A stretch of DNA of 41,208 nucleotides from a virus: the IMG/VR virus record IMGVR_UViG_3300005535_000011; one strand, 5' to 3'. Below, one piece after another: positions 1-41,208 of the stretch; the stretch's first letter is position 1, and each line of letters starts with the position of its first letter. The notes beneath the pieces were generated by a model. The model did no database searches, was not told where the DNA came from, and was given only the letters and a program-made list of their open reading frames with translations. A program made the position numbers and the translations under genes.

Positions 1-120
1 AAATTCGGCACTAATTATACAAAAGCTCAATTAGTAGGAATCTTGCAAAGGTTTTAGTATGGAAGAGATCAAAGCACAAGAATCAGAACTCACACCCGAC
101 CAACAGGATGAGAAAAACTG
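1..120. repeat. Terminal direct repeat, left copy (identical to 41089..41208)
   Basis: Read directly: 1..120 equals 41089..41208. Bases 1..57 re-encode the last 18 codons plus stop of CDS 40300..41145, and 59..120 is the start of CDS 59..292. This is an assembly overlap of a circular genome or a terminal redundancy. Confidence 0.95.
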
Positions 121-13717: not shown

Positions 13718-13931
13718 TGTATAGCTTGTCCTTAACCGCTGAATGTGTGAAAAGATAGTGTTTGTGACAGGTGGGACACTCCAAATAAGTATCCTCGGCC
13801 TTACTAAGCTCCAGGTTGATATTATGACAAGGAAGTTGAACCGTATAATGCTTCTGTTTTTCGCGCTGGTTATAGAACTCGTGAAAACGCTGCTTTATTA
13901 GGTCGGCATCGGTCAGCATTGAGTACGTCAT
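13710..13931 (-). CDS. hypothetical Cys/His-containing small protein (73 aa)
   Basis: ATGA-coupled to the groEL stop. Contains CH..(17)..CPTCH, a possible zinc ribbon. Confidence 0.55.
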   Translation of the reverse strand: MTYSMLTDADLIKQRFHEFYNQREKQKHYTVQLPCHNINLELSKAEDTYLECPTCHKHYLFTHSAVKDKLYNE

Positions 13932-15580
13932 ACCACGCTTGCTTCGTCGGTCTTCTCTTCGTCAGCAATAATCACACCAGAGGTAAGCAGGCTCATGGCC
14001 GCAGATGTGGCATTTTGAAGTGCTGAAATAGGTACTTTGACCGGGTCAATGACCCCGGAAGATATAAGCTCTTTGATAGTACCGTCTATTACGTCAACTC
14101 CGAGTGTGGAGCGCTCGCTCTCTTTGGGCCAGCTATAAGTTGCCTGCAAGAGGCGTTCAAGCATCTGCCCTGGTTCAAGGCCGCTGTTTTCCATGAGAGT
14201 TTTAAAAGGCCACTGCATTGCCTTTATCACAAGCTTATATCCGGCCACCACTTCTTCGGAGCCACTAACTTCGCCAAGGTGCTTCTCGAGTTCCCAGGAG
14301 GCCCGTAGTAGCGGTGTTTCGCCACCCGCAACAATACCCAACTCGTTAGCCGCCTTAATGGCACCTACAGCGTCAATCGCGCGCTCCTTTAGCTCTTTGG
14401 CCTCACCTTCACCGCGAGCACCCACGTTGATGATCGCAATACCTGAAGTTAGCTTGGCTATCCGTTCTTGCAAACGCTCAACTTCAAATTCAGACACGTT
14501 TTCTTTCTTAATCCGAGACTTGAGCAAATCGACACGTTTTTGGATATCGTCAGGATGGCCACCACCATTTACGATAGTCGTACTATCTTTGGAAGCGACG
14601 ACCTTTTGGGCGTGTCCAATATCCTTTTTGGTGAGGCCGCCTTCTTCGCCTACTTCTAGTGTACGTCCTGCGGCCCTAGATATGAACTGGCCGCCTACCG
14701 AGATAGCAATGTCTTCGAGACGTTCCTGTTGTTCGTCCCCAAAACTGGGTGCGCGTACAGCCAATAGATGTAGGCCTTTCATTTTATTGTGCAACAATAC
14801 CGCCAAGGCAACTTCTTTAACGTCCGGAGAAATAATAACGAGGTTGTCGTTTATGTCGAGTTCCATCATTGCCTCGAGTACCTTTTGGATGTCCGAACCG
14901 CTCGATAGGGTGTAATCGGTAACGAGTACGTTGGCGTTATCCACAGCCGCCTCATCAAATTCAGGATTGGTTAAAAAGTACCGGCTCAGGTAACCTTGGT
15001 CAACTTCCATACCGTCCTTGTATTCGGAATAGATGTAGTTTTGCTTGCTTTCCTCAACCGCGATAACAGCATCGTTACCGAGCTTGTCGAAGGCCTTGGC
15101 AACTTCGCCGCCAACCTTATCGTTTTGCGATGCAATGTTTGCCACTTCTAACTGTTGTTTGTTGGTCTTAATCGGTGTGGCGGCGCCTCTAAGGTACTCA
15201 ACAACCTGCTCCACGGCTTTCTCTACGCCACGGCGTAACATTTGAGCGTTATGTCCGGCCGCGACAAGCTTGCGACCCTCGGTAAATAGTGAGTTAGTAA
15301 GAATAGTGGCGGTGGTCGTGCCGTCGCCCGCCTCATCATTTGTCTGTTTAGCGGCCTCTTTGACGATTTCTTGCGCAGCTGCCACAAATGGGTCTTTGGG
15401 GTCGAGTTCCTTCGCAACGGTTACGCCATCGTGTACGACCCCGGGGGTTCCGAAAGGTCGTTTGAAGATTACGTTATGAGCGCGTGGTCCAAGGGTCGCG
15501 CCTACGGCTCGTTTCGCCTCTTCAACACCCTCTTTAATCTTTGCGTACGCATCTTCTTCAAATAATACTATCTTACTCAT
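13928..15580 (-). CDS. groEL: chaperonin GroEL (Cpn60), phage-encoded (550 aa)
   Basis: The translation is collinear with bacterial GroEL: TLGPRAHNV, the ATP-site motif EAGDGTTTATIL, IVAGGETPLLR and SALQNATSAAMSLLT. It lacks the C-terminal GGM tail (ends ..DEEKTDEASVV). Confidence 0.92.
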   Translation of the reverse strand: MSKIVLFEEDAYAKIKEGVEEAKRAVGATLGPRAHNVIFKRPFGTPGVVHDGVTVAKELDPKDPFVAAAQEIVKEAAKQTNDEAGDGTTTATILTNSLFTEGRKLVAAGHNAQMLRRGVEKAVEQVVEYLRGAATPIKTNKQQLEVANIASQNDKVGGEVAKAFDKLGNDAVIAVEESKQNYIYSEYKDGMEVDQGYLSRYFLTNPEFDEAAVDNANVLVTDYTLSSGSDIQKVLEAMMELDINDNLVIISPDVKEVALAVLLHNKMKGLHLLAVRAPSFGDEQQERLEDIAISVGGQFISRAAGRTLEVGEEGGLTKKDIGHAQKVVASKDSTTIVNGGGHPDDIQKRVDLLKSRIKKENVSEFEVERLQERIAKLTSGIAIINVGARGEGEAKELKERAIDAVGAIKAANELGIVAGGETPLLRASWELEKHLGEVSGSEEVVAGYKLVIKAMQWPFKTLMENSGLEPGQMLERLLQATYSWPKESERSTLGVDVIDGTIKELISSGVIDPVKVPISALQNATSAAMSLLTSGVIIADEEKTDEASVV

Positions 15581-15806
15581 CCGTGCCTCCCTTTTCTGGT
15601 AGTTCTACGATCTCCATTTTATCGCCATCTTTTAGCCCAACTCCTACGGTATCGACCCCTAAATCCATTAGTGCCTGTAGCAAATGCTTACCTGCACCGA
15701 GGGTCACTTTTCCCTTGTTAAAGACAATCAGGTATTTTTTTTGTGGGTCGAGCGCGATAGCATCCACGTTAACAATCTTCACAGAGGTTTGTTTAGATCG
15801 AGGCAT
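15573..15806 (-). CDS. hypothetical protein inserted between groES and groEL (77 aa)
   Basis: 8-nt overlap with the groEL start and 14-nt overlap with the upstream ORF, so it is translationally coupled. Confidence 0.55.
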   Translation of the reverse strand: MPRSKQTSVKIVNVDAIALDPQKKYLIVFNKGKVTLGAGKHLLQALMDLGVDTVGVGLKDGDKMEIVELPEKGGTDE

Positions 15807-16137
15807 ATATCTTCTCTTTCATATTCTCAAGCAGTCTATACACTTCGGAAACCTGCGTGACGCTTCCAATATGCATACCCTTGATGATGCTGTTTATGGT
15901 CGTGATAGCGGCTGCCGTTTTGTCGGTCTCTGCCTCGACTTCAAGCGGTATGCCCCTAAAGTTCGTGAGTACCTGGCCGCCTTCAAAGAAAAACTTCTCG
16001 GCCTGGTCTTTGCTTACCAGCAGAGCGTCTGGAAACCGATTGGGTTCGTTGGCCGTTCTGTAGGCTTCAACAAGGGCACCGATCACCTTCGGGTTTACGT
16101 CCTCATCGGACAGGGCAAGAAGAGATATCTTACTCAT
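15793..16137 (-). CDS. hypothetical protein inserted between groES and groEL (114 aa)
   Basis: 8-nt overlap with the groES stop. Uninterrupted ORF. Confidence 0.55.
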   Translation of the reverse strand: MSKISLLALSDEDVNPKVIGALVEAYRTANEPNRFPDALLVSKDQAEKFFFEGGQVLTNFRGIPLEVEAETDKTAAAITTINSIIKGMHIGSVTQVSEVYRLLENMKEKIYASI

Positions 16138-16426
16138 CGGCTTCTTCTACCTTAAAGAGCAGGTTTTCAAAATGAACAGCGATGTACTTTTTGACGCCCA
16201 GGGTCATGACAAAGTGGTTGTACTTCTTATAGGCGATCACGTCGTTAACCTTTGGGACGTGTTTTGCATCGTATGGCATCTTTGAGAGCGGGTCGCCAAC
16301 GGCGACGACTTTACCCACCTCGGGCGCATCTTCGGTGTCACCTTTTGGCATCTCGAAATTGCCAATCTTTTTATTAAGCGTGTGTGGCTTTAATATTACA
16401 TACCCCGGAAGAGGATTAAGGCGCAT
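16130..16426 (-). CDS. groES: co-chaperonin GroES (Cpn10)-like (98 aa)
   Basis: GroES pattern: MRLNPLPGYVILKP (M-x-[IL]-x-PL-x-x-x-V-[IL]-x-K), GKVVAVG, VNDVIAYKKY. First gene of the chaperonin operon, preceded by TGtTATAAT. Confidence 0.75.
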   Translation of the reverse strand: MRLNPLPGYVILKPHTLNKKIGNFEMPKGDTEDAPEVGKVVAVGDPLSKMPYDAKHVPKVNDVIAYKKYNHFVMTLGVKKYIAVHFENLLFKVEEADE

Positions 16427-19065: not shown

Positions 19066-19358
19066 TGTTTTACCTCGCTATTGGTAGGAGCGATGTCTTG
19101 AAGAAAAACTTTTAGAGTTCTGCCATCATCCTGCAAGTTGTAGGTGACATTAAATGGCTGGTCTTCCCCAATGGCAATTTCACTGGTTTTTCCGTCTGGT
19201 AGAAATTTAATTACCTCAAAACGGTTAACCACGTCTTTTCGGTTCTCCCTATCCTGCTTAATGAGCGCCATAATAGCGTCCAGAAGCGAGGGGGCACACA
19301 AACCATGCTCTGCTGTAACCTGAAACTCAATCTGCTTACGTAATCCTTCATCATCCAT
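19062..19358 (-). CDS. hypothetical protein (98 aa from ATG 19358; track start 19400)
   Basis: ATG 19358 (MDDEGL..) has GGAG about 10 nt upstream and overlaps the methyltransferase stop by 8 nt. ATG 19400 would overlap by 50 nt. Confidence 0.5.
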   Translation of the reverse strand: MDDEGLRKQIEFQVTAEHGLCAPSLLDAIMALIKQDRENRKDVVNRFEVIKFLPDGKTSEIAIGEDQPFNVTYNLQDDGRTLKVFLQDIAPTNSEVKQ

Positions 19359-19932
19359 TGGTTTTTTCTCCAAATACGGTTTGGGGCGTAAGTTCCACAT
19401 CCTGTGCTAACTCATTACCCCAATTATCCCAGCCACCTGATTCTTGGCGTGCAAATAGTTCAACACGCGGTACATCGCCCATGAGCCTTACTATTCTGTC
19501 ACGCACTTCCCCAGGTTTTTTTGAATGTTCCTCGATTGGCGACATGACAACTTGTGCCACAGAAGCATCGCAACGCTTAGGATTCCCCTTAACGCCAAGC
19601 AAGCATATTTCTGCGTTAGTTCGCGTCCACTGTCCCATGCCGAAGAAGGGTGTACCTGATTTTTTATTTGTCTTTACCCACGTGAAGGCTACGGTTTTAT
19701 ACTCAAACCCCCAGGCCTTTAGGGTGTACAAGGCTTCAGGCAGCATAGGATAGGTCGCCCACAGGAAAAGGGTTGCGTCATCTGCACTAATTGAACTAAC
19801 GGGCAAGTTGTATATGTCAACACTACGCATTGTTTTGTATTGTTGATTTTGTGCTCTACCGCCGTGCAAGCTTTTAAAAACAGTGTAGTTCCATGGCGGG
19901 TCAGCATAGATTATTTGATATTTTTTATTCAT
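19351..19932 (-). CDS. DNA N6-adenine methyltransferase, MT-A70 family (193 aa)
   Basis: Catalytic DPPW motif in IIYADPPWNY near the N-terminus. The size and downstream conserved blocks (LFLWAT, GxGxWTR) fit the phage MT-A70-like methylases. Confidence 0.8.
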   Translation of the reverse strand: MNKKYQIIYADPPWNYTVFKSLHGGRAQNQQYKTMRSVDIYNLPVSSISADDATLFLWATYPMLPEALYTLKAWGFEYKTVAFTWVKTNKKSGTPFFGMGQWTRTNAEICLLGVKGNPKRCDASVAQVVMSPIEEHSKKPGEVRDRIVRLMGDVPRVELFARQESGGWDNWGNELAQDVELTPQTVFGEKTNG

Positions 19933-22365: not shown

Positions 22366-23505
22366 CTACTTCTTTTCAATACCAAGAAGCACCATCAACT
22401 CGTCAATCCAGCCCAAAACCTCTTTAGCTATGGGATTTGTTTCAGGTGTGTCTCCCTTACTAATACCCATAAAGTAAGCTTCAGCAGGTCGCTGAGAATC
22501 CGGTTCGATACCCTCTAGTTCTTTGTAGTCACATTTCCGTACGTTTGCAATCGTTCCGCATAGGCAGGCGCATTCGCCTTCGTATACCGAACCATCGACT
22601 TTACCGTCGATAACTGCCTGACGTAGTGCCGGAATCTCAGGTATAGCATGCAGCAGAATTTCCCATACGTCTGCTTTAATCGATAGGGCATTGCCGAACA
22701 CCCGAGCATTGCCGGACACCTCAGCATTGCCGAACACCCGAGCATTGCCGGACACCTCAGCATTGCCGAACACCCAAGCATTGCCGAACACCCGAGCATT
22801 GCCGGACACCTCAGCATTGCCGGACACCTCAGCATTGCCGGACACCTCAGCATCGCCGAACACCCGAGCATTGCCGGACACCTCAGCATCGCCGGACACC
22901 TCAGCATCGCCGGACACCCGAGCATCGCCGAACACCCAAGCATTGCCGAACACCTCAGCATCGCCGGACACCTCAGCATCGCCGGACACCCGAGCATTGC
23001 CGGACACCTCAGCATCGCCGAACACCCGAGCATTGCCGGACACCCAAGCATTGCCGAACACCCGAGCATTGCCGAACACCCAAGCATCGCCGAACACCCA
23101 AGCATTGCCGGACACCCGAGCATTGCCGGACACCCAAGCATTGCCGAACACCCGAGCATTGCCGGACACCTCAGCATCGCCGAACACCCGAGCATTGCCG
23201 GACACCTCAGCATCGCCGAACACCCGAGCATTGCCGGACACCTCAGCATCGCCGGACACCCGAGCATCGCCGGACACCTCAGCATCGCCGGACACCCAAG
23301 CATCGCCGGACACCTCAGCATCGCCGGACACCCAAGCATTGCCGAACACCCGAGCATTGCCGTTGCTTAATCTTTCACTCTCTACCCAACCGCCCTTATC
23401 GCCCTTTTTGACAGAACCGAAATCTGCGGTTGCCTCAATGCGAAAGAGCTTTTTACCTAGGAAGTTGATTTTTGTTTCGTCGGTGAGTTTAAATTTAAGA
23501 TTCAT
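22366..23505 (-). CDS. YdcK-like hexapeptide-repeat (left-handed beta-helix type) protein with Cys-rich C-terminal domain (379 aa)
   Basis: A 48-aa N-terminus (..ADFGSVKKGDKGGWVES..) is followed by 37 uninterrupted units G-[ND]-A-[REW]-V-[SF], then a 109-aa non-repeat tail containing CACLCG..(8)..C. The architecture recalls E. coli YdcK-type proteins (from memory). Confidence 0.7.
   Translation of the reverse strand: MNLKFKLTDETKINFLGKKLFRIEATADFGSVKKGDKGGWVESERLSNGNARVFGNAWVSGDAEVSGDAWVSGDAEVSGDARVSGDAEVSGNARVFGDAEVSGNARVFGDAEVSGNARVFGNAWVSGNARVSGNAWVFGDAWVFGNARVFGNAWVSGNARVFGDAEVSGNARVSGDAEVSGDAEVFGNAWVFGDARVSGDAEVSGDAEVSGNARVFGDAEVSGNAEVSGNAEVSGNARVFGNAWVFGNAEVSGNARVFGNAEVSGNARVFGNALSIKADVWEILLHAIPEIPALRQAVIDGKVDGSVYEGECACLCGTIANVRKCDYKELEGIEPDSQRPAEAYFMGISKGDTPETNPIAKEVLGWIDELMVLLGIEKK
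22696..23361 (-). repeat. Tandem 18-bp repeat array, 37 units (666 bp), inside CDS 22366..23505
   Basis: Plus-strand unit G[A/G]ACAC[CCG/CTC/CCA]AGCAT[T/C]GCC. As far as I can read, the other 14 positions are invariant in all 37 units. All three frames on both strands are open across it. Confidence 0.95.
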
Positions 23506-25614: not shown

Positions 25615-26007
25615 TTACTTGGCTATCAGGTCGTTGTGTAGCTGAGCTACGATCTGATAAATCGTCCGTGCCTCTTCAATGGTTTTGATCTCGCCATTAT
25701 GGTATTGGTAGCCTATCCGATTGCTTACGTAAGAGTAGGCTTGCCCACGTTTGATCTTGCCGTTTTTCCACAACGGGTCAAGCAAGGCATGTATCTTCTT
25801 GCGAGCTTCCAATATCTCCCTGGTTGCTATACAGCCAAGCGGCTTAGTTGGATTGTTGGTTTTGTGATGACAACCAACATAGTTGCCGCATCCGTCACAT
25901 TTCCAAAAAGGTAGGTCATACAAATCTGGTCTGTGCGGATACCGTTCTTTCCCGTCAGTAAGACGAGCCTCGACGTCCACCTTACAACCGGTGCAATATA
26001 TCTGCAC
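25615..26007 (-). CDS. zinc-finger phage protein (130 aa), DUF3268-like from memory
   Basis: CTGC..(31)..CDGC followed by YVGCHH and a conserved PLG..A....R..IH..LD.LW block. Confidence 0.55.
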   Translation of the reverse strand: MQIYCTGCKVDVEARLTDGKERYPHRPDLYDLPFWKCDGCGNYVGCHHKTNNPTKPLGCIATREILEARKKIHALLDPLWKNGKIKRGQAYSYVSNRIGYQYHNGEIKTIEEARTIYQIVAQLHNDLIAK

Positions 26008-26018
26008 GTATTTACCTC

Positions 26019-26225
26019 CTATACAAAAATCTTCACAACCTTGTCATACGCTATGTATGAAACAAGGCCGATAATAGCTAGGGTCTTTAAACCTGAGCTG
26101 TGCTTACAAGCTACAAACCACAGAATCCGTGTCGTGGACATCTCCGAAATAATCCTGATGCCTGATTTAGTGGGTTTGCTTAGTTCTTTTGAATCTTCGT
26201 ACTTTGATTGATTTTTTACTAACAT
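26019..26225 (-). CDS. hypothetical protein (68 aa), first ORF after the structured noncoding region
   Basis: AAAGGA RBS 8 nt upstream. A hydrophobic segment sits near the C-terminus. Confidence 0.45.
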   Translation of the reverse strand: MLVKNQSKYEDSKELSKPTKSGIRIISEMSTTRILWFVACKHSSGLKTLAIIGLVSYIAYDKVVKIFV

Positions 26226-26328
26226 AGTAAAATCCTTTCTTATTTGTTGTGTTTGTTTCCGAGTAGATTGTTAAGGTTCTTCCAGGGCATCGGGCAAGTC
26301 TCGCACAAGCCCGATGTTGTCCCCAGAG

Positions 26329-26456
26329 CAGGCAGGTCAGCCGTTGGATTTTCCGGGGCTCAGATACGAATTGCACGTATCCGGACGCCGACTAGTCTTT
26401 TAGCGTCTCATTTCCCTTTGTTTGCCATTGGAATCATCCAACGGCTGACCTGCCTG
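26329..26456. other. Long hairpin element: perfect 21-bp stem enclosing 86 nt with two sub-hairpins
   Basis: 26329..26349 CAGGCAGGTCAGCCGTTGGAT pairs with 26436..26456 ATCCAACGGCTGACCTGCCTG. Inner hairpins are GATACG/CGTATC (26363..26381) and GACGC/GCGTC (26384..26407). Confidence 0.8.
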
Positions 26457-26461
26457 GTATT

Positions 26462-26615
26462 TTGGCTAGCCTATTCCCCGCAGTGTGCCGATATTGCGTA
26501 CGCGCCATCAGTTAGGCGTCGGTCTGTTAAAGGTGTAGGGTACCAGCCGGAACCTATCACCTCGCAGGAGTTGACTGTGAAGCCGTACCCTCACCACGGG
26601 GAATAGGCTAGCCAA
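26462..26615. other. Long hairpin element: perfect 19-bp stem enclosing 116 nt
   Basis: 26462..26480 TTGGCTAGCCTATTCCCCG pairs with 26597..26615 CGGGGAATAGGCTAGCCAA. Inner helix AGGGTAC/GTACCCT (26537..26543 / 26585..26591) is extended by GGTG/CACC. Confidence 0.8.
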
Positions 26616-26718
26616 GTGTCGTCTCCACCACACCCATAAATCCTCGCGCTACTGAGTTCGTATCCCGTAGGCTCTACGACGCTTCACTTGAGGAGGAGGC
26701 GGGTTTCCCCGGTGTTGA

Positions 26719-26742
26719 GTTCAAACGCTCATTTGACCCCAA
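26719..26742. repeat. 24-bp inverted repeat, left copy (GTTCAAACGCTCATTTGACCCCAA)
   Basis: Perfect reverse complement of 28412..28435. It contains the internal dyad TCAAA-N6-TTTGA and starts 3 nt after the tandem terminators. Confidence 0.95.
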
Positions 26743-26745
26743 CAT

Positions 26746-26774
26746 AAGAAAACCCCCACGCTTTGACGTGAGGG
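26746..26774 (-). terminator. Rho-independent terminator (minus strand), second of a tandem pair
   Basis: Minus-sense CCCUCACG-ucaaag-CGUGGGGG followed by UUUUCUU. One G.U pair is valid only on the minus strand. Confidence 0.6.
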
Positions 26775-26793
26775 ACACTGACGCCAAGCATAT

Positions 26794-26821
26794 AAAAACC
26801 TCCTACCGTTTCAGTAGGAGG
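26794..26821 (-). terminator. Rho-independent terminator (minus strand) directly after the tRNA 3'-half
   Basis: Perfect 8-bp stem CCTCCTAC-tgaaacg-GTAGGAGG followed by TTTTT, 13 nt after the ..CCA end. Confidence 0.7.
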
Positions 26822-26834
26822 TGAGAGTTATGCT

Positions 26835-26880
26835 TGGCTGGGGTGGAGGGATTCGAACCCCCGAATGCAAGGTCTGAATC
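26835..26880 (-). other. tRNA 3'-half-like segment = candidate attP core
   Basis: Minus-sense ..GAUUCAGACCUUGCAUUC-GGGGG-UUCGAAU-CCCUC-CACCCCA-G-CCA. This gives a canonical T-arm (UUCGAAU loop), a 7-nt acceptor 3' strand, a discriminator G and an encoded CCA. There is no matching acceptor 5' strand or D-arm upstream, so it is a fragment. Confidence 0.7.
26858..26874. repeat. 17-bp inverted repeat, left arm (CCCCCGAATGCAAGGTC), inside the tRNA fragment
   Basis: Perfect reverse complement of 27018..27034. Confidence 0.9.
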
Positions 26881-27017
26881 TTTTTACCCTTCCGGCAACT
26901 CTTTACGCCTACTGGGACGTTGAGTGGATGGAGCAAATTGTCAAAGTTCTAAGTGAAGAATATCATCACCACGCACTAAAATGCAAGTACTTTTTAGTAA
27001 AAGTTATCCACATATAT

Positions 27018-27034
27018 GACCTTGCATTCGGGGG
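27018..27034. repeat. 17-bp inverted repeat, right arm (GACCTTGCATTCGGGGG), 8 nt from the int stop codon
   Basis: Perfect reverse complement of 26858..26874, with a 143-bp AT-rich spacer between the arms. Confidence 0.9.
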
Positions 27035-27042
27035 CCGTAGCC

Positions 27043-27909
27043 CTAATGACTATGATAGCGCATAAACACTTCTTCTTCCCTGTTTTCCAGGTGAGAATAT
27101 ATGTCGCCCGTAACCTGTATGCTGGCGTGATTCATGAGCACCTGAAGAGATTTGAGGCTGCCCCCATTGTAGATAATATCCGATGCATACGAGTGCCGGT
27201 AGACGTGCGGCGTGATGTTCTTGCGGATTCCCGTTACCTCCTCAAGCTCGTGCAATATCTGCTCAACTCTGGATACGGTTATGCGTTTTCCCTGTGACGA
27301 AGTGAAGAGGGGGCGTAGCTGATCGTGACGCGTGGCTAGATAAGCATCAATATGCGCCTGAACGGTGGTATTAAAATAGAGCCTTGACTTGTTTCCGGCC
27401 TTGTCCTCGACCCAGAGCTCCTTATTGCCGTGTTCCGTAGCTGGTGCGTATTCGTAATACTCCCGGTCTACGCTCAGGAGCGCGCTGATACGGCTTCCGG
27501 TGTGGAATAAGGCGCTTACAATAGCCTTGTCGCGAGGGTTTCTGGTTGCAGCGACGGTCTTTTCTATTTCCTCGACTGTTAGATATGTATGATTGGTCTT
27601 GCGTTTGCGGCGCGGAACATCAATCGAGTCAGGATTAATTACTGCCCTGCCCTGCTGTCTGCAATAACGAAGCACTTTGCATAAGCATTTGACGCACGAG
27701 TAGATATAATTTGCGGACTTTCCCTCTTGCTGCAAAATAACTTTCCAGCGTATAACGGCGTCTTCGGTTAGGAGTTCTATAGGCGCATCGCCTATATTAC
27801 GTATTAATGAATTGCACGCCGTTCGATAGTTCGCCTGCGTTTTGGGTGCAAAATTATTAGCCTGTAGCCCATAAAGGTCATACAGGCGAAACGCCTCACT
27901 AATTGTCAT
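27043..27909 (-). CDS. int: tyrosine recombinase / integrase, XerC/D-like (288 aa)
   Basis: Catalytic residues readable: R in HTGSRISAL, H-x-x-R in HVYRHSYAS, H in LMNHAS and the nucleophile Y in GDIYSH. The N-terminus resembles a SAM-like core-binding domain. GGGAGA RBS. A tRNA-3'-half attP lies 160 bp downstream. Confidence 0.9.
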   Translation of the reverse strand: MTISEAFRLYDLYGLQANNFAPKTQANYRTACNSLIRNIGDAPIELLTEDAVIRWKVILQQEGKSANYIYSCVKCLCKVLRYCRQQGRAVINPDSIDVPRRKRKTNHTYLTVEEIEKTVAATRNPRDKAIVSALFHTGSRISALLSVDREYYEYAPATEHGNKELWVEDKAGNKSRLYFNTTVQAHIDAYLATRHDQLRPLFTSSQGKRITVSRVEQILHELEEVTGIRKNITPHVYRHSYASDIIYNGGSLKSLQVLMNHASIQVTGDIYSHLENREEEVFMRYHSH

Positions 27910-28220
27910 GATTTCTCCCGTCTTGTGTTCGCTATTGAGTATATTCGCCTTATATTTCCCCTTTCAACATGATCGATATCACGGTGTTTGTTTAGATTGT
28001 TTTTAGGTTCCTGAGTTATTATGTATTTTTGTGCACAGCAGTGCTCCCCGCTTTAGGTGGAGCGGAACGGTACCCTCTGACCAACACAACATGAAGCAAC
28101 GTCTCTAAGGCGCATCATCTACTGTAGCCATGACCCTAGCTTTTTCGGGTCTACGTCTTTTTTGGTAAGGAGTGCGTACAACTCCGGCCACAGCAATCGT
28201 CTTTTGGCCCCTTCCTTAGT

Positions 28221-28298
28221 ATCACTTCTACCCTCGATTACAGTGCGGGTAGGGACAACCTAAGCTCGGTTGTCCGTTGGCACTGTAATCGAAGTGAT
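28221..28298. other. 78-nt three-helix hairpin in the int-HTH intergenic region
   Basis: ATCACT/AGTGAT (6 bp), TCGATTACAGTGC/GCACTGTAATCGA (13 bp perfect, 28234..28246 / 28280..28292) and GGACAACC/GGTTGTCC (8 bp, 7-nt loop). Confidence 0.75.
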
Positions 28299-28374
28299 GG
28301 TTACCCTGTTCGATGTATTGTGAGCAGGACTATCGCTAGCCAATAACGTGTTGTGTAAGTGTTTAATAGAGATC

Positions 28375-28419
28375 AAAAAAGACCCCAAAAAAGACAATTT
28401 CACATGTCTTATTGGGGTC
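28375..28419 (-). terminator. Strong Rho-independent terminator (minus strand) in the int-HTH intergenic region
   Basis: Minus-sense GACCCCAA-u-AAGACA-ugugaaau-UGUCUU-uu-UUGGGGUC followed by UUUUUU (28380..28375). 14 bp in total. Confidence 0.7.
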
Positions 28420-28435
28420 AAATGAGCGTTTGAAC
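28412..28435. repeat. 24-bp inverted repeat, right copy (TTGGGGTCAAATGAGCGTTTGAAC)
   Basis: Perfect reverse complement of 26719..26742. It overlaps the 5' arm (minus sense) of terminator 28375..28419. Confidence 0.95.
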
Positions 28436-28441
28436 ATTCTT

Positions 28442-28450
28442 ATGATATCA
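28442..28450 (-). promoter_or_regulatory. Extended -10-like promoter TGaTATCAT (minus strand) for a candidate small RNA
   Basis: Palindromic TGATATCA. On the minus strand the hexamer ends about 6 nt before position 28435/28436, the start of the 24-bp repeat. Confidence 0.35.
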
Positions 28451-28493
28451 ATCCGGAAGTATTATGTCAAGTGTAGTGTTTTGTCACTGCTTA

Positions 28494-28502
28494 TGCTATA
28501 AT
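28494..28502 (+). promoter_or_regulatory. Extended -10 promoter TGcTATAAT for the HTH regulator (leaderless start)
   Basis: The hexamer ends 7 nt before A of ATG 28510. Confidence 0.5.
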
Positions 28503-28509
28503 AATAGAG

Positions 28510-28773
28510 ATGAGGTTAAAATACGACAAAGAAATTGGTGATTTTGTAGTAGGTGCCGATGGTAAGCGTCTCCGCGATTTTTATATTGAAAAACGCAGGG
28601 AATCAGGCAAAACTATTAATGGTCTCGAGCGTGAGATTAATGTAAGCAGGCAGGCCCTCCGCTATGTGGAGATGCCAAACAGTTCGGGTACGCAGAGCAA
28701 TAGCGCACACATGATACTCCGGGCATTACAGGGTCTTGGCTACACGTTGGAACTTAAGGAGCCATCAAAATGA
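28510..28773 (+). CDS. XRE/Cro-type helix-turn-helix transcriptional regulator (87 aa), probably leaderless
   Basis: HTH segment KTINGLEREINVSRQALRYVE. First gene of the rightward arm. TGcTATAAT ends 7 nt before the ATG and there is no SD. Confidence 0.75.
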   Translation: MRLKYDKEIGDFVVGADGKRLRDFYIEKRRESGKTINGLEREINVSRQALRYVEMPNSSGTQSNSAHMILRALQGLGYTLELKEPSK

Positions 28774-29027
28774 TTTCTGACGATATGAAGGAACTGATGG
28801 AACGTTTCGGCCCTAACGGACTGAAAGAGCTAGGCAATATTGAGAACAAGACAGAGTTCTTATTGCATAGGTTGCTTATTGTAACCACGATTGCCGCCAA
28901 CCTGCATTCTATTGACCCAGCGAGTGGCGAGCAGTTTTTAAAGAACTTCGAACCACTGATTTTAAAAGCCCAGCAAGAGTTACAAAGCCAGGTTGAGAAA
29001 TTTACCCACGATCACGGCGAGCTATGA
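28770..29027 (+). CDS. hypothetical protein (85 aa)
   Basis: AAGGAG RBS and ATGA overlap with the HTH gene. Confidence 0.6.
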   Translation: MISDDMKELMERFGPNGLKELGNIENKTEFLLHRLLIVTTIAANLHSIDPASGEQFLKNFEPLILKAQQELQSQVEKFTHDHGEL

Positions 29028-29028
29028 G

Positions 29029-29457
29029 ATGGTATGCGCAAGATGCAATCAAAAAGCCTCGCACATATTCTCTGATGAACGAGGTGAGCGGTGCGAAAAC
29101 TGTTCGTCTATGTCTATCGTCAGCAAGAATAAGACGGATGGCATACTCACTCGTACCTCATGGCGCATAAGACGCCAGCAATCCAGGCACGAGGGAGATA
29201 TGGTACTTCCCCACTCCTACGATAAGACAAAGCACCGCGAGGTTGTAAATCCTGACTTCGTTAAGCTCTACCCCGACAAGGTTAAAGATTTCTTCAGTGG
29301 CGACCAGCTAAAAAAGGATGGCTACAGTAAAATGCCTGACGCTATTGCTAAGAACGAAGCCAAGCGAGAGAGACAGCGCGACGAGTTCAAAGCCGATACC
29401 ATTTATTCCGGAAGCTCAGAAAAGGCGATGGCCAAGTTTTTGAAGGATGAGGCATGA
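29029..29457 (+). CDS. zinc-ribbon protein (142 aa from ATG 29029)
   Basis: CARC..(16)..CENC near the N-terminus. ATG 29029 lies 1 nt after the upstream stop. The track start at 28993 overlaps the upstream gene. Confidence 0.55.
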   Translation: MVCARCNQKASHIFSDERGERCENCSSMSIVSKNKTDGILTRTSWRIRRQQSRHEGDMVLPHSYDKTKHREVVNPDFVKLYPDKVKDFFSGDQLKKDGYSKMPDAIAKNEAKRERQRDEFKADTIYSGSSEKAMAKFLKDEA

Positions 29458-29876
29458 TCTTACAAGACCCACACGATGCCTTGCACGCCAGATGCGAGCC
29501 CGTCACCTTCCCCGAGGCAAAGCGTATCGCTAAAACATTGCGCGACGCTTATCAGGAAGTATCCAAAAAGGCCAAAGACACCCTCGTAGTAGGATTGGCC
29601 GCGCCCCAGATTGGCATTCCAAAGCGTATGTTTGCTATGTATGGCATAGTGTTTATCAACCCCAGCTTTACGGCGCATGGCCCGAAACTGGTTGATAGCG
29701 CTGAGGGATGCTTAAGCCTGCCCGATACCTACCACCCAAAGCGCTATGACACGATTTTGGCTACGTGGACAGATGAAGCACGTAGATTACGACGCGAACT
29801 ATTGGAAGGTAGGGATGCGGTTGTGTTCCAACATGAATTTGACCATTTGGAGGGAAGATTGTGCAATGAGTTATAG
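29454..29876 (+). CDS. def: peptide deformylase (140 aa)
   Basis: All three PDF motifs are present: VGLAAPQIG (GxGxAAxQ), EGCLS and QHEFDHLEG (HExxH). Confidence 0.88.
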   Translation: MILQDPHDALHARCEPVTFPEAKRIAKTLRDAYQEVSKKAKDTLVVGLAAPQIGIPKRMFAMYGIVFINPSFTAHGPKLVDSAEGCLSLPDTYHPKRYDTILATWTDEARRLRRELLEGRDAVVFQHEFDHLEGRLCNEL

Positions 29877-40299: not shown

Positions 40300-41145
40300 A
40301 TGCACCCTGATACCTACGGCATGGTACAGACTGACTCGGGTCAGCCCGAGGAACGTTTAGAAAAAATCGAAACACCAAAACCAAGAAACGACGAGAACGA
40401 TACCCTATGGATTAAAAACATTGACACCGATTGTTACGATACCACATATGAGCCGGTTCGTGTTTCTGAACGGTGGCGTGAGCCCGAAAGCGGACGTATC
40501 AAAGTAAGCTTTAGGGATCATGTCTATTCTTTTGAGCACGGCGAAAAGTTCCAAGTCCGCTGGTCTGGTCAGGTATTCAGTATTAAACCTGGGGAAGTGG
40601 CGCGTATGCCTCGTTTCTTGGGCGAGCACTTCGCTACGCAGTTGGCTGACCATATTCTTGGCAAAATGGGTGACTCACAAGGAAAAATGCTGAGGAATGA
40701 CCCTATACGGCGCCCTGAGATTATCAAAAAGATCATCATCAAAGAAGAACCGTACTTCTTTAGCGGGCCGCAGAGCGTGGGAGAAGAAACGCTAAAGCAG
40801 TTTGAAGATATGAACAAGCCACAAATCTCTGGTATCGGCGGCGATAATTACGACAATAAGGGCCAAGCGGGCATTGACCTTTCGGAAGGCGACGGCATAA
40901 CCAAAGACAGTATTATTACGCCCGTTGGCTTAATCAACAAAACGTCGGTTGAATCGACAGAAGATGTCATAAAACGCATTAAGGCCGATACTGAAACGCC
41001 CGAAGATAGCCTCAACGTTCCCGAGGACTGGCAAAAGTACTCCAAGGTCGAGCTAGTTAATCTTATTCGGAATATGGCACCTGACTATAAATTCGGCACT
41101 AATTATACAAAAGCTCAATTAGTAGGAATCTTGCAAAGGTTTTAG
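40300..41145 (+). CDS. hypothetical protein (281 aa)
   Basis: Preceded by TGgTATAGT and an AGAGG RBS. Its 3' end lies in the terminal repeat. Confidence 0.6.
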   Translation: MHPDTYGMVQTDSGQPEERLEKIETPKPRNDENDTLWIKNIDTDCYDTTYEPVRVSERWREPESGRIKVSFRDHVYSFEHGEKFQVRWSGQVFSIKPGEVARMPRFLGEHFATQLADHILGKMGDSQGKMLRNDPIRRPEIIKKIIIKEEPYFFSGPQSVGEETLKQFEDMNKPQISGIGGDNYDNKGQAGIDLSEGDGITKDSIITPVGLINKTSVESTEDVIKRIKADTETPEDSLNVPEDWQKYSKVELVNLIRNMAPDYKFGTNYTKAQLVGILQRF

Positions 41146-41208
41146 TATGGAAGAGATCAAAGCACAAGAATCAGAACTCACACCCGACCAACAGGATGAG
41201 AAAAACTG
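41089..41208. repeat. Terminal direct repeat, right copy (identical to 1..120)
   Basis: Identical 120-mer at both window ends. 41147..41208 duplicates the first 62 nt of CDS 59..292. Confidence 0.95.

What the first reader, a model, noticed from the sequence alone, without database searches (positions are those of the whole stretch)
26719..28435. 24-bp perfect inverted repeat brackets the integrase/attP module; the right copy is the 5' end of a promoter-to-terminator mini-transcript, suggesting possible RNA-based regulation or immunity
Seen in sequence: GTTCAAACGCTCATTTGACCCCAA (26719..26742) is the exact reverse complement of 28412..28435. The 1717-bp bracketed segment holds two terminators, the tRNA-3'-half attP, int and about 0.5 kb of ORF-free DNA. 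On the minus strand, an extended -10-like element (TGaTATCAT, 28450..28442) sits about 6 nt before the right copy. A 14-bp terminator hairpin plus U6 (28419..28375) uses the last 8 nt of the repeat as its 5' arm. The predicted ~60-nt RNA therefore has a free 16-nt 5' end followed by an intrinsic terminator, the classic trans-acting sRNA layout. That 5' end is perfectly complementary (24 nt) to any minus-sense RNA crossing 26742..26719. Such an RNA would have read through the tandem terminators into the long structured leader of the leftward early operon. There is no ORF of 60 aa or more between int and the rightward HTH gene, so a leftward CI-type protein repressor is not evident. Established precedent: P4 CI RNA and P1/P7 c4 RNA give immunity by pairing with repeated complementary sites in a leader. 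The analogy is inference. Two alternatives remain: (a) each copy carries the dyad TCAAA-N6-TTTGA and could be a pair of operators for the 87-aa HTH protein (looping), or (b) the repeats are inversion or transposition ends for the tyrosine recombinase.
Basis: partly seen in the sequence, partly recalled or inferred. Interest (0 to 1): 0.8.

Follow-up and report, generated by a model that had tools for sequence, protein, structure and literature searches.

The report
Small RNA and target flanking integrase
The 24-base inverted repeat around this soil phage's integrase most likely marks a tiny regulatory RNA and its matching target at the head of the phage's early genes; at least six other phages have the same layout with a different "address" sequence each, which points to RNA-based control of lysogeny.

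Summary
In detail: 26719-26742 is the perfect reverse complement of 28412-28435, with about 3e-6 such pairs expected by chance.

The right copy starts 6 nt after a near-consensus promoter, TTGACA-17-TGaTATCAT. Its last 8 nt open a strong terminator hairpin, giving a predicted RNA of about 60 nt with a free 16-nt 5' end. The left copy lies 10 nt after the stem of the second of two terminators that follow the tRNA-like attP, at the start of the leftward early-operon leader.

Six other phage contigs, with integrases 22-56% identical, have the same layout. Their repeats are 20-23 nt and unrelated in sequence. The only two mismatches are G·U wobbles in the predicted RNA sense.

There is no evidence for inversion. 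The internal dyad and the 87-aa protein are not conserved.

Best reading, by inference: a trans-acting antisense RNA silences transcripts that enter the early operon across attP. That would give immunity or insulation like P4 CI or P1 c4, but the element is not a member of those families.

A live rival reverses the direction: the leader RNA opens the small RNA's terminator and switches on int. No transcript data exist.

Verdict: a new variant of a known kind.

The parts
28442..28470 (-). Promoter of the small RNA (P_s): TTGACA, 17-nt spacer, TGaTATCAT (extended -10). The predicted start is at or next to 28435.
   Evidence: 11 of 12 plus TG. Equivalent promoters end 3-7 nt before the upstream arm in L014, L103, L109, L114, L162 and L270.
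28412..28435 (-). Right arm, the 5' 24 nt of the predicted small RNA (GUUCAAACGCUCAUUUGACCCCAA). The first 16 nt are unpaired.
28375..28419 (-). Intrinsic terminator of the small RNA: a two-tier hairpin plus U6. Its 5' arm is the last 8 nt of the repeat. The whole predicted RNA spans 28435 to about 28375, roughly 60 nt.
   Evidence: dG -21 to -22 kcal/mol, z -4.2 to -5.0.
28003..28333 (-). Conserved structured non-coding element between the small RNA and int. It accompanies int, not the repeat.
   Evidence: 32 predicted pairs, 13 with compensatory changes; nhmmer hits upstream of int in L014, L109, L173, L164, L166-168, L111. No Rfam hit.
27043..27909 (-). Tyrosine integrase, 288 aa. A promoter-like site lies at 27967-27938.
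26957..26986 (-). P_att, a promoter just downstream of int that reads across attP toward the early operon: TTGCAT, 18-nt spacer, TGaTATTCT.
   Evidence: Read from the sequence. Same position as TTGACA-17-TATxxT-type promoters in L014, L103, L109, L114, L162, L173, L270 and L015.
26834..26880 (-). tRNA 3'-half-like segment, the probable attP core.
   Evidence: T-arm match. An independent contig ends at 26839. A relative's contig ends just past the same element. ARAGORN finds no complete tRNA.
26753..26822 (-). Two tandem intrinsic terminators after the tRNA-like segment.
   Evidence: One or two terminators sit in the same place in L014, L103, L109, L114 and L162.
26719..26742 (-). Left arm, the target. 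In minus-sense RNA it reads UUGGGGUCAAAUGAGCGUUUGAAC, the perfect complement of the small RNA's 5' end, and lies 10 nt after the stem of the second terminator.
   Evidence: It is the only site in the genome that pairs beyond background (-43 kcal/mol; next best -23; shuffled-seed range -22 to -28).
26230..26718 (-). Highly structured leader of the leftward early operon, with long hairpins at 26329-26456 and 26462-26615. The first ORFs are 26225-26019 and 26007-25615 (DUF3268).
   Evidence: (z -8.3).

Best explanation
The two copies are the two halves of an RNA-RNA pairing module.

The right copy is the 5' end of a small RNA of about 60 nt. It is made from a strong constitutive promoter and ended by its own terminator. 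The left copy is the single, perfectly complementary target. It sits in the minus-sense leader of the leftward early (replication/recombination) operon, directly after the terminators that follow the tRNA-like attP.

RNAs carrying the target are read-through transcripts. In the circular phage they would come from P_att or int. After integration they would come from the host tRNA gene, which is rebuilt using the phage's 3' half.

The free 16-nt 5' end would nucleate a 24-bp duplex of about -42 kcal/mol. That duplex silences the read-through RNA, most plausibly by RNase III cleavage or premature termination. The early operon stays off in the lysogen, and incoming phages carrying the same seed are blocked, which is sequence-specific immunity.

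Shown: the repeat, its promoter and terminator context, and its conservation with co-varying sequence. Inferred: that the RNAs exist, that they pair, and the direction and outcome of regulation.
For: 1. The repeat is real and non-random.
2. It has the layout of a trans-acting small RNA: a near-consensus promoter ending 6 nt upstream, a free 5' seed, and a strong terminator.
3. Six other contigs carry the same layout: L014, L103, L109, L114, L162 and L270. Their integrases are 22-56% identical to this one. Each has a 20-23-nt arm of unrelated sequence starting 3-7 nt after a -10 element and running into a hairpin. Its complement lies beyond int, P_att, attP and (except in L270) a clear terminator, at the head of a co-oriented operon.
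4. Controls: shuffled flanks give a longest match of about 11 nt on average, 16 at most. In 1.06 Mb of integrase loci, all five perfect long-range inverted repeats of 22 nt or more bracket int. In 0.82 Mb of related phage loci without this int cassette there are none of this type.
5. The only two mismatches (L114, L270) are small-RNA G opposite target U. That is a wobble in the predicted sense and would be A·C on the opposite strands.
6. The target is the only site in the genome that pairs beyond background.
7. All seven carriers have a co-oriented operon downstream of int. Five of the relatives without the module have convergent genes there instead.
8. No CI-like repressor was found among the 20 small ORFs scanned.
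Against: - There are no transcript data, so the promoter and terminator are predictions only.
- The target lies after one to two strong terminators, so target-bearing RNA may be rare.
- No early-operon promoter was identified downstream of the target. How the operon is ever expressed is unexplained.
- The last 5-8 nt of the seed are locked in the small RNA's own terminator stem. A simple repressor small RNA does not need this, and it fits the reverse-direction rival better.
- The 87-aa protein, with sub-threshold HTH hits at E 0.06-0.12, could still be a protein repressor.
- Only some of the integrase relatives carry the module.
Confidence: 0.5

Rival explanations
1. Same RNA pair, opposite direction: an integration-state sensor for int. 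The leader RNA carrying the left copy is made from P_att only while the genome is circular. It pairs with the nascent P_s transcript and sequesters the 5' arm of its terminator. Transcription then reads through into the structured element and int. Integration at attP separates P_att from the left copy, the anti-terminator RNA disappears, and int shuts off.
For: - In all seven instances the 3' 5-8 nt of the arm form the 5' strand of the RNA's own hairpin or terminator, and full pairing opens it (gain of -15 to -27 kcal/mol).
- attP lies between the arms where one can be recognised (tRNA-like or complete tRNA in the window, L014, L103, L109, L114; repeat motifs in L162; none recognised in L270), and P_att always lies upstream of it.
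- L014 and L114 have no promoter-like site between the terminator and int.
Against: - A trans RNA would have to catch the nascent transcript within about 45 nt of synthesis.
- The target RNA itself lies behind terminators.
- The window, L103 and L109 have promoter-like sites directly upstream of int.
Confidence: 0.2
2. A cis long-range stem, a lambda sib-like retroregulation. A long transcript from P_s through int and attP folds so that its 5' 24 nt pair with the left copy. This makes an RNase III site that destroys int mRNA only in the non-integrated state.
For: - The arms bracket int and attP in every instance.
- Arm length clusters at 20-24 bp, about two helical turns. That is the size RNase III prefers (established knowledge, not tested here).
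Against: A strong terminator immediately follows the first arm, and one or two terminators precede the second. Few transcripts would therefore contain both arms.
Confidence: 0.08
3. Paired DNA binding sites (operators or roadblocks) for a phage protein such as the 87-aa HTH-like protein. One site would block P_s and the other would block entry into the early operon, perhaps with looping.
For: - The dyad TCAAA-N6-TTTGA occurs only in the two copies.
- L114 has a similar dyad, CACAAA-N6-TTTGTG.
- The right copy covers +1 to +24 of P_s.
- The divergent 87-aa gene has weak HTH hits.
Against: - L014, L103 and L109 have no dyad of 4 nt or more in the arm.
- The 87-aa protein has no homologue in 5.8 billion proteins.
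- No HTH gene neighbours the module in relatives.
- Perfect identity extends over non-palindromic flanks.
- Both mismatches preserve RNA pairing, not DNA identity.
- No promoter overlaps the left copy.
Confidence: 0.08
4. Ends of an invertible or transposable int-attP cassette recognised by the tyrosine recombinase.
For: A perfect inverted repeat flanks a recombinase gene, and an outside promoter points into the segment.
Against: - All long assemblies that cross the arms, and two short contigs that cross the right arm, are colinear with the window.
- Arm sequences are unrelated between integrases that are 27-56% identical, and unrelated to the attP core.
- The coupling of arm, transcription start and terminator is unexplained by this model.
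- Relatives' attP is the tRNA-like site.
Confidence: 0.04

Closest known systems
Satellite phage P4 CI RNA immunity (antisense-RNA-dependent premature termination)
   Same: A small untranslated RNA, not a protein, pairs with complementary sequence in the leader of the early/replication operon and keeps it off in the lysogen (P4 mechanism as summarised in PMC4825925).
   Different: P4 CI is processed out of the very leader it controls and has two targets (seqA, seqC) flanking it. Here the RNA has its own promoter and terminator, lies 1.7 kb away on the other side of int and attP, and has one target. No Rfam family matches.
P1/P7 c4 antisense RNA controlling icd-ant
   Same: A trans-acting phage RNA whose short complementary stretches define the immunity specificity. 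Specificity differs between relatives (own knowledge).
   Different: c4 is cut from a precursor and its targets overlap a ribosome-binding site. Here the target is 80 to about 500 nt upstream of the first ORF, so occlusion of the ribosome-binding site is unlikely.
Lambda sib retroregulation of int
   Same: A regulatory RNA element sits on the far side of attP from int, so integration separates it from int (own knowledge of lambda; geometry here).
   Different: sib is a local hairpin in the int read-through transcript. Here the partner is 1.7 kb upstream, behind its own terminator.
Countertranscript-driven attenuation in plasmids pT181 and pIP501
   Same: An RNA binding a nascent leader decides whether a terminator hairpin forms. 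This matters for the reverse-direction rival (own knowledge).
   Different: Those antisense RNAs are cis-encoded opposite their target and promote termination. Here the partners are trans-encoded inverted repeats, and pairing would open a terminator.
Integration-dependent immunity of mycobacteriophages
   Same: attP is placed inside a regulatory unit, so integration itself rewires lysogeny control (own knowledge).
   Different: There attP lies inside the repressor gene and changes a protein's stability. Here attP separates a promoter, and the small RNA gene, from an RNA target.

Membership tests
C4/CI antisense RNA family (P1/P7 c4, P4 CI) | Sequence and structure homology to the curated RNA family | tested here: not met
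   No Rfam match at gathering threshold in the whole window. None at E<=5 in 25900-28700 apart from a tmRNA T-arm fragment. That the family is in Rfam is from my own knowledge.
C4/CI antisense RNA family (P1/P7 c4, P4 CI) | The RNA is produced by processing of the leader transcript it regulates | tested here: not met
   It has its own near-consensus promoter and its own terminator, 1.7 kb from the target and across int and attP.
C4/CI antisense RNA family (P1/P7 c4, P4 CI) | Two or more target sites in the leader | tested here: not met
   There is a single site.
C4/CI antisense RNA family (P1/P7 c4, P4 CI) | Complementarity to the leader of the early or antirepressor operon | tested here: met
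   A 24/24 complement sits at the head of the leftward early-operon leader. The equivalent is present in six relatives.
C4/CI antisense RNA family (P1/P7 c4, P4 CI) | Pairing causes premature termination or a translational block and confers immunity | not testable with these tools
   This needs transcription, reporter and infection assays.
Trans-encoded base-pairing small RNA (5' seed plus Rho-independent terminator) | Independent transcription unit with its own promoter and intrinsic terminator | tested here: met
   Prediction only. The promoter scores 11 of 12 plus TG. The terminator has z -4.2 to -5.0. A promoter-like site and a downstream hairpin recur in the six other instances; the hairpin is a clear intrinsic terminator in most but weak or unclear in L109.
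Trans-encoded base-pairing small RNA (5' seed plus Rho-independent terminator) | Single-stranded seed whose complementarity to the target is kept through sequence change | tested here: met
   In the window, L103, L109 and L162, 12-16 nt at the 5' end are predicted unpaired; in L014 and L114 the 5' end can form a short weak hairpin. Seven unrelated arm sequences each match their own target, and both mismatches are G·U.
Trans-encoded base-pairing small RNA (5' seed plus Rho-independent terminator) | The transcript is detectable with the predicted ends | not testable with these tools
   No transcriptome data are available here.
Invertible DNA switch (recombinase gene flanked by inverted repeats) | Both orientations are present in populations | tested here: not met
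   Long assemblies from four samples that cross the arms, and two short contigs across the right arm, are all colinear with the window. Assemblies report the majority form, so rare inversion is not excluded.
Invertible DNA switch (recombinase gene flanked by inverted repeats) | The repeats are the recombinase's recognition sites and so are similar among related recombinases | tested here: not met
   The arms share no sequence between relatives with 27-56% identical integrases.
Lambda sib-type retroregulation | The regulatory RNA element lies beyond attP relative to int, so integration uncouples it | tested here: met
   The order is int, then P_att, then attP where one is recognisable, then the terminator, then the left arm. 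The gene order holds in all seven instances; an attP-like element is recognisable in six of them, not in L270.
Lambda sib-type retroregulation | The structure forms within the int transcript and is cut by RNase III | tested here: inconclusive
   The partner arm lies upstream of a strong terminator, so the two arms would rarely be in one RNA. Cleavage cannot be tested here.
Repressor-operator pair (dimeric HTH protein) | Dyad-symmetric sites with a conserved cognate DNA-binding protein | tested here: not met
   A dyad is present in the window and L114 and is weak in L162. It is absent in L014, L103 and L109. The 87-aa protein is an orphan. No HTH gene sits next to the module in relatives.

The most novel reading that the evidence does not exclude
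These temperate phages run lysogeny without a classical protein repressor, using a split circuit wired across attP. The only strong promoter for the early operon (P_att) lies on the int side of attP, so integration physically cuts the early operon off from it. A programmable 20-24-nt RNA 'address', shared by a small RNA and the early leader, would then do two jobs. It would silence read-through from the host tRNA gene and from superinfecting phages. Through overlap with the small RNA's terminator, it would also report the circular or integrated state to int expression.
Probability: 0.2. Interest if true: 0.85.

Novelty: new variant of a known kind. Interest (0 to 1): 0.7.

Why it matters
RNA-only immunity is known from very few phage systems (P4, P1/P7, N15-type), all in enterobacteria and all using processed RNAs. 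This would be a simpler, modular version: promoter, 20-24-nt address, terminator, and one matching site at the head of the early operon. It recurs in uncultivated soil and environmental phages, each with a different address.

If confirmed, it would show how immunity specificity can change by editing two short sequences. It would give a compact, orthogonal set of RNA repressor or switch parts. It would also tie integration state, tRNA-gene read-through and lytic gene control together in a way that can be tested with simple reporters.

Tried and rejected
- Rfam, whole window at gathering threshold and 25900-28700 at E<=5: only a tmRNA T-arm fragment.
- ARAGORN: no complete tRNA or tmRNA in the window.
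- blastn of 26000-29000 against 50,697 phage records: no match.
- Exact 24-mer in IMG/VR: no match.
- Single-protein locus searches with int and with the 87-aa protein in IMG/VR: nothing.
- Homologue search with the 87-aa protein: only itself.
One unclear case, L049, has a 25-nt repeat around int but no promoter.
- Genome scan with a 17-mer of the int-upstream motif: 13 of 15 hits were chance. Two were real, a Candidatus Saccharibacteria MAG contig and a copy of L109.
- 18-mer scan of IMG/VR: the new hits lie inside an 814-aa ORF, so they are chance.
- DUF3268-based searches for closer relatives gave one new instance (L270). The other 80-plus loci have no int cassette and served as negative controls.
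- AlphaFold of the 87-aa protein without an alignment: pLDDT 55, uninformative, so no fold search was run.
- Lambda nut-like reading (the same RNA sequence in two divergent operons): rejected. Both copies lie in minus-sense transcription units, so they give complementary RNAs, not identical ones.
- Literature searches found no description of this arrangement.
Full report
**Source and observation**

The window is a complete, circularly assembled phage genome: JGI 3300005329 Ga0070683_100000189, with a 120-nt terminal overlap and 48% G+C.

No further copy exists even with 3 mismatches. About 3e-6 such pairs are expected by chance. It is present in independent JGI, ENA and Logan assemblies that are 99.8-100% identical, so it is not an assembly artefact.

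**Anatomy on the minus strand, read in the direction of int**

1. A near-consensus sigma-70 promoter: TTGACA, 17 nt, TGaTATCAT, at 28470-28442.
2. Six nt later, the right arm.
3. The last 8 nt of the arm form the 5' arm of a two-tier hairpin followed by U6. Its dG is -21.7 kcal/mol and z is -4.2 to -5.0. This predicts an RNA of about 60 nt with 16 free 5' nt.
4. A 0.45-kb ORF-free stretch that turns out to be a conserved structured element (see "Noticed in passing").
5. int, a 288-aa tyrosine recombinase.
6. A promoter I call P_att, at 26986-26957.
7. A tRNA 3'-half-like attP at about 26880-26834.
8. Two tandem terminators.
9. Ten nt after the second terminator stem, the left arm, which in this RNA sense is the perfect complement of the small RNA's 5' end.
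10. A very structured leader (z -8.3).
11. The early operon: DUF3268 protein, Sak4-like ATPase, HNH, MT-A70, GroES/GroEL.

An RNAduplex scan of both strands of the genome finds no other site that pairs with the 24-nt seed beyond background. The target scores -43 kcal/mol, the next best -23, and shuffled seeds range from -22 to -28.

**Comparative test**

The 87-aa neighbour is an orphan. The integrase has relatives.

I fetched loci by exact-protein look-up and by profile scans. In each I searched for matches between the 2.5 kb upstream of int and the reverse complement of the 2.5 kb downstream. I also searched for any long-range perfect inverted repeat.

Six further contigs have a repeat in the same two positions:

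| Contig | Arm length | Arm sequence | Mismatches | Identity to window |
|---|---|---|---|---|
| L014 | 23 nt | GATATACAAATGTCAGAGCCCAG | 0 | int 55% |
| L103 | 22 nt | TGACTTCTAAACCAAGCTCCGC | 0 | int 39% |
| L109 | 23 nt | CTCGTCAGAAAACACACTACAAA | 0 | int 34% |
| L114 | 22 nt | CACAAACTGCTATTTGTGGCAC | 1 | int 28% |
| L162 | 22 nt | AAGTTAGCCACTTCGAAGCCCC | 0 | int 22% |
| L270 | 20 nt | TGAAATGCGATACATGGCCC | 1 | int 27%; DUF3268 84% |

The arm sequences are unrelated to one another, yet each matches its own partner.

In every case the upstream arm begins 3-7 nt after a -10 element, usually the TG-extended form. Its 3' 5-8 nt enter a hairpin, which is a clear terminator in the window, L014, L103, L162 and L270.

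In every case the downstream arm lies beyond int and a strong promoter placed just after the int stop codon. In L014, L103, L109, L114, L162, L173 and L270 this promoter is of the TTGACA-17-TATxxT type. In the window and L015 it is TTGCAT-17/18-TGaTATTnT. After it comes the att region, which is a tRNA 3' half, a complete tRNA-Gly in L114, or GTACACC repeats in L162. In all but L270 the arm then follows directly after an intrinsic terminator. It sits at the head of a co-oriented operon.

**Controls**

- Shuffled flanks give a longest match of about 11 nt on average and 16 at most.
- In 1.06 Mb of integrase-containing loci, all five perfect long-range repeats of 22 nt or more bracket int.
- In 0.82 Mb of phage loci that share the DUF3268 gene but lack this int cassette, there are none of this type.
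- Relatives without the module mostly have convergent genes downstream of int, so there is no operon to regulate.

**RNA or DNA?**

Both mismatches (L114, L270) put G in the small-RNA strand opposite U in the target strand. That is a wobble in the predicted transcripts and would be A·C on the opposite strands. With only two events this is suggestive, about a 1-in-4 chance if only transitions occur.

No HTH protein is conserved next to the module. No promoter overlaps the downstream arm.

The inversion or transposon-end idea predicts either both orientations in populations or conserved ends among related recombinases. Neither is seen.

A nut-like reading fails because both arms sit in same-strand transcription units and so give complementary RNAs, not identical ones.

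**Mechanism**

Shown:
- the repeat;
- the predicted promoter and terminator around the right arm;
- the position of the left arm after the attP terminators;
- conservation of this architecture with co-varying arms.

Inferred:
- A small RNA of about 60 nt is made constitutively.
- Its free 5' end nucleates a 24-bp duplex of about -42 kcal/mol with any RNA that reads across attP into the early leader. In the circular phage that RNA would come from P_att or int. In the lysogen it would come from the rebuilt host tRNA gene.
- This silences the early operon.

The tight arm length of 20-24 bp equals about two helical turns, the preferred RNase III substrate (established knowledge). I therefore favour cleavage, with premature termination as the alternative. 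Different seeds in every relative fit an immunity-specificity determinant.

The main weaknesses are that target RNA must first escape one or two terminators, and that I found no early promoter downstream of the target.

A serious rival uses the same pairing in reverse. The arm always overlaps the small RNA's own terminator stem, and attP and P_att lie between the arms. Leader RNA made only from the circular form could therefore open that terminator and drive int, with integration switching it off. The two directions are not mutually exclusive.

**Comparison with known systems**

Functionally this resembles P4 CI and P1/P7 c4 RNA immunity (P4 mechanism as summarised in PMC4825925). It is not a member of those families:
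- it has no Rfam match;
- it has its own promoter rather than being processed from the leader;
- it has one target rather than two;
- the target is far from any ribosome-binding site.

It shares with lambda sib the placement of a regulatory RNA element beyond attP. It shares with pT181-type attenuation the idea of an RNA deciding a terminator's fate. I found no description of this arrangement in the searchable literature. I rate it a new variant of a known kind.

**Host**

The host is unknown. One relative's contig is binned in a Candidatus Saccharibacteria MAG, which is weak evidence. One independent contig ends at 26839, inside the tRNA-like segment. L173's contig ends just past its own tRNA-like segment. 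Both fit an assembly break at attP between integrated and free forms.

**Noticed in passing**

- The ORF-free DNA between the small RNA and int (28003-28333) is a conserved structured motif with compensatory pairs. It also occurs upstream of int in phages that lack the repeat.
- A second, nested 17-nt perfect inverted repeat links the int 3' end to the tRNA-like core. It has an 18-nt analogue at the same spacing in L015.
- Two other lineages have a co-varying 17-nt repeat whose second arm lies 5-30 nt upstream of the int start codon.

Long-range perfect antisense pairs therefore look like a recurrent regulatory device in these phages.

Noticed in passing
window 28003-28333 (minus strand): The ORF-free DNA upstream of int is a conserved structured motif. 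It has a covarying hairpin (TCACTTCGATTACAGTGC...GCACTGTAATCGAGGGTAGAAGTGA). Two invariant blocks also pair at long range (GAAGUGAUACUAnGG with CCUUAGAGACGUUGCUUC). RNAalifold predicts 32 pairs, 13 of them compensatory. The motif also lies upstream of int in L014, L109, L173, L164, L166-168 and L111, including phages without the 24-nt repeat. There is no Rfam match. It may be a new int-associated RNA or 5' UTR element.
   Followed up: partly
window 26957-26986 (minus strand); L014 5923-5951; L103 5875-5903; L109 4742-4770; L114 5896-5924; L270 5414-5442: A strong promoter directly after the int stop codon, reading across attP toward the early operon, is conserved in all module carriers. Integration at attP would separate it from the early genes.
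   Followed up: partly
window 26858-26874 and 27018-27034: A nested 17-nt perfect inverted repeat. One arm starts 9 nt after the int stop codon and the other lies inside the tRNA-like attP core, 143 nt apart. L015 (int 56% identical) has an 18-nt perfect pair with different sequence at the same position, 142 nt apart. L014 has none. Function unknown.
   Followed up: partly
window 26329-26456 and 26462-26615: Two long hairpins in the early-operon leader. One has a 21-bp perfect stem with an 86-nt interior, the other a 24-bp stem at 92% with a 106-nt interior. The 601-nt region folds with z -8.3. Similar long perfect hairpins occur in relatives at other positions (L014 4439-4561, L020 2839-2961, L167 6198-6527). 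They may be inserted palindromic elements or structured RNAs.
   Followed up: no
L102/L106 4284-4300 and 4979-4995; L018/L104 3749-3765 and 4954-4970: Two other integrase lineages have a 17-nt perfect inverted repeat. Its second arm lies 5-30 nt upstream of the int start codon. Its first arm sits between conserved flanks 0.7-1.2 kb upstream. The arms differ between the two lineages while the flanks are conserved, which suggests antisense control of int translation.
   Followed up: partly
window 28494-28512 (plus strand): The 87-aa gene starts at 28510, only 7 nt after an extended -10 element (TGcTATAAT, 28494-28502). This suggests a leaderless mRNA transcribed back-to-back with the small RNA promoter. 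It is the first gene of the rightward operon that runs into the terminase genes.
   Followed up: no
window 22688-23362 (inside the 379-aa ORF 22366-23505, minus strand): A highly repetitive beta-solenoid (YdcK/bactofilin-like) gene whose repeat number differs between otherwise near-identical assemblies. The products are 379, 259 and 235 aa.
   Followed up: no
window 13928-16426, 19351-19932, 29454-29876: The phage encodes GroEL and GroES homologues, an MT-A70 methyltransferase and a peptide deformylase. The relative L020 also carries Cpn60.
   Followed up: no
L114 6099-6175: In this relative a complete tRNA-Gly(GCC) gene, not a 3' half, sits between P_att and two terminators, directly upstream of the target arm.
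   Followed up: partly
L173 (CAZTOK010000012.1, 37 kb) and window 26839: A relative with the same small-RNA-like unit, int-upstream motif, int, P_att and tRNA 3' half is binned in a Candidatus Saccharibacteria MAG. Its contig ends just past the tRNA-like segment. An independent contig of the window phage ends at 26839, inside the tRNA-like segment. Both hint at a host group and at integrated copies in the samples.
   Followed up: partly
window 1-120 and 41089-41208: An identical 120-nt terminal overlap, so the contig is a complete circular assembly of about 41,088 bp.
   Followed up: yes
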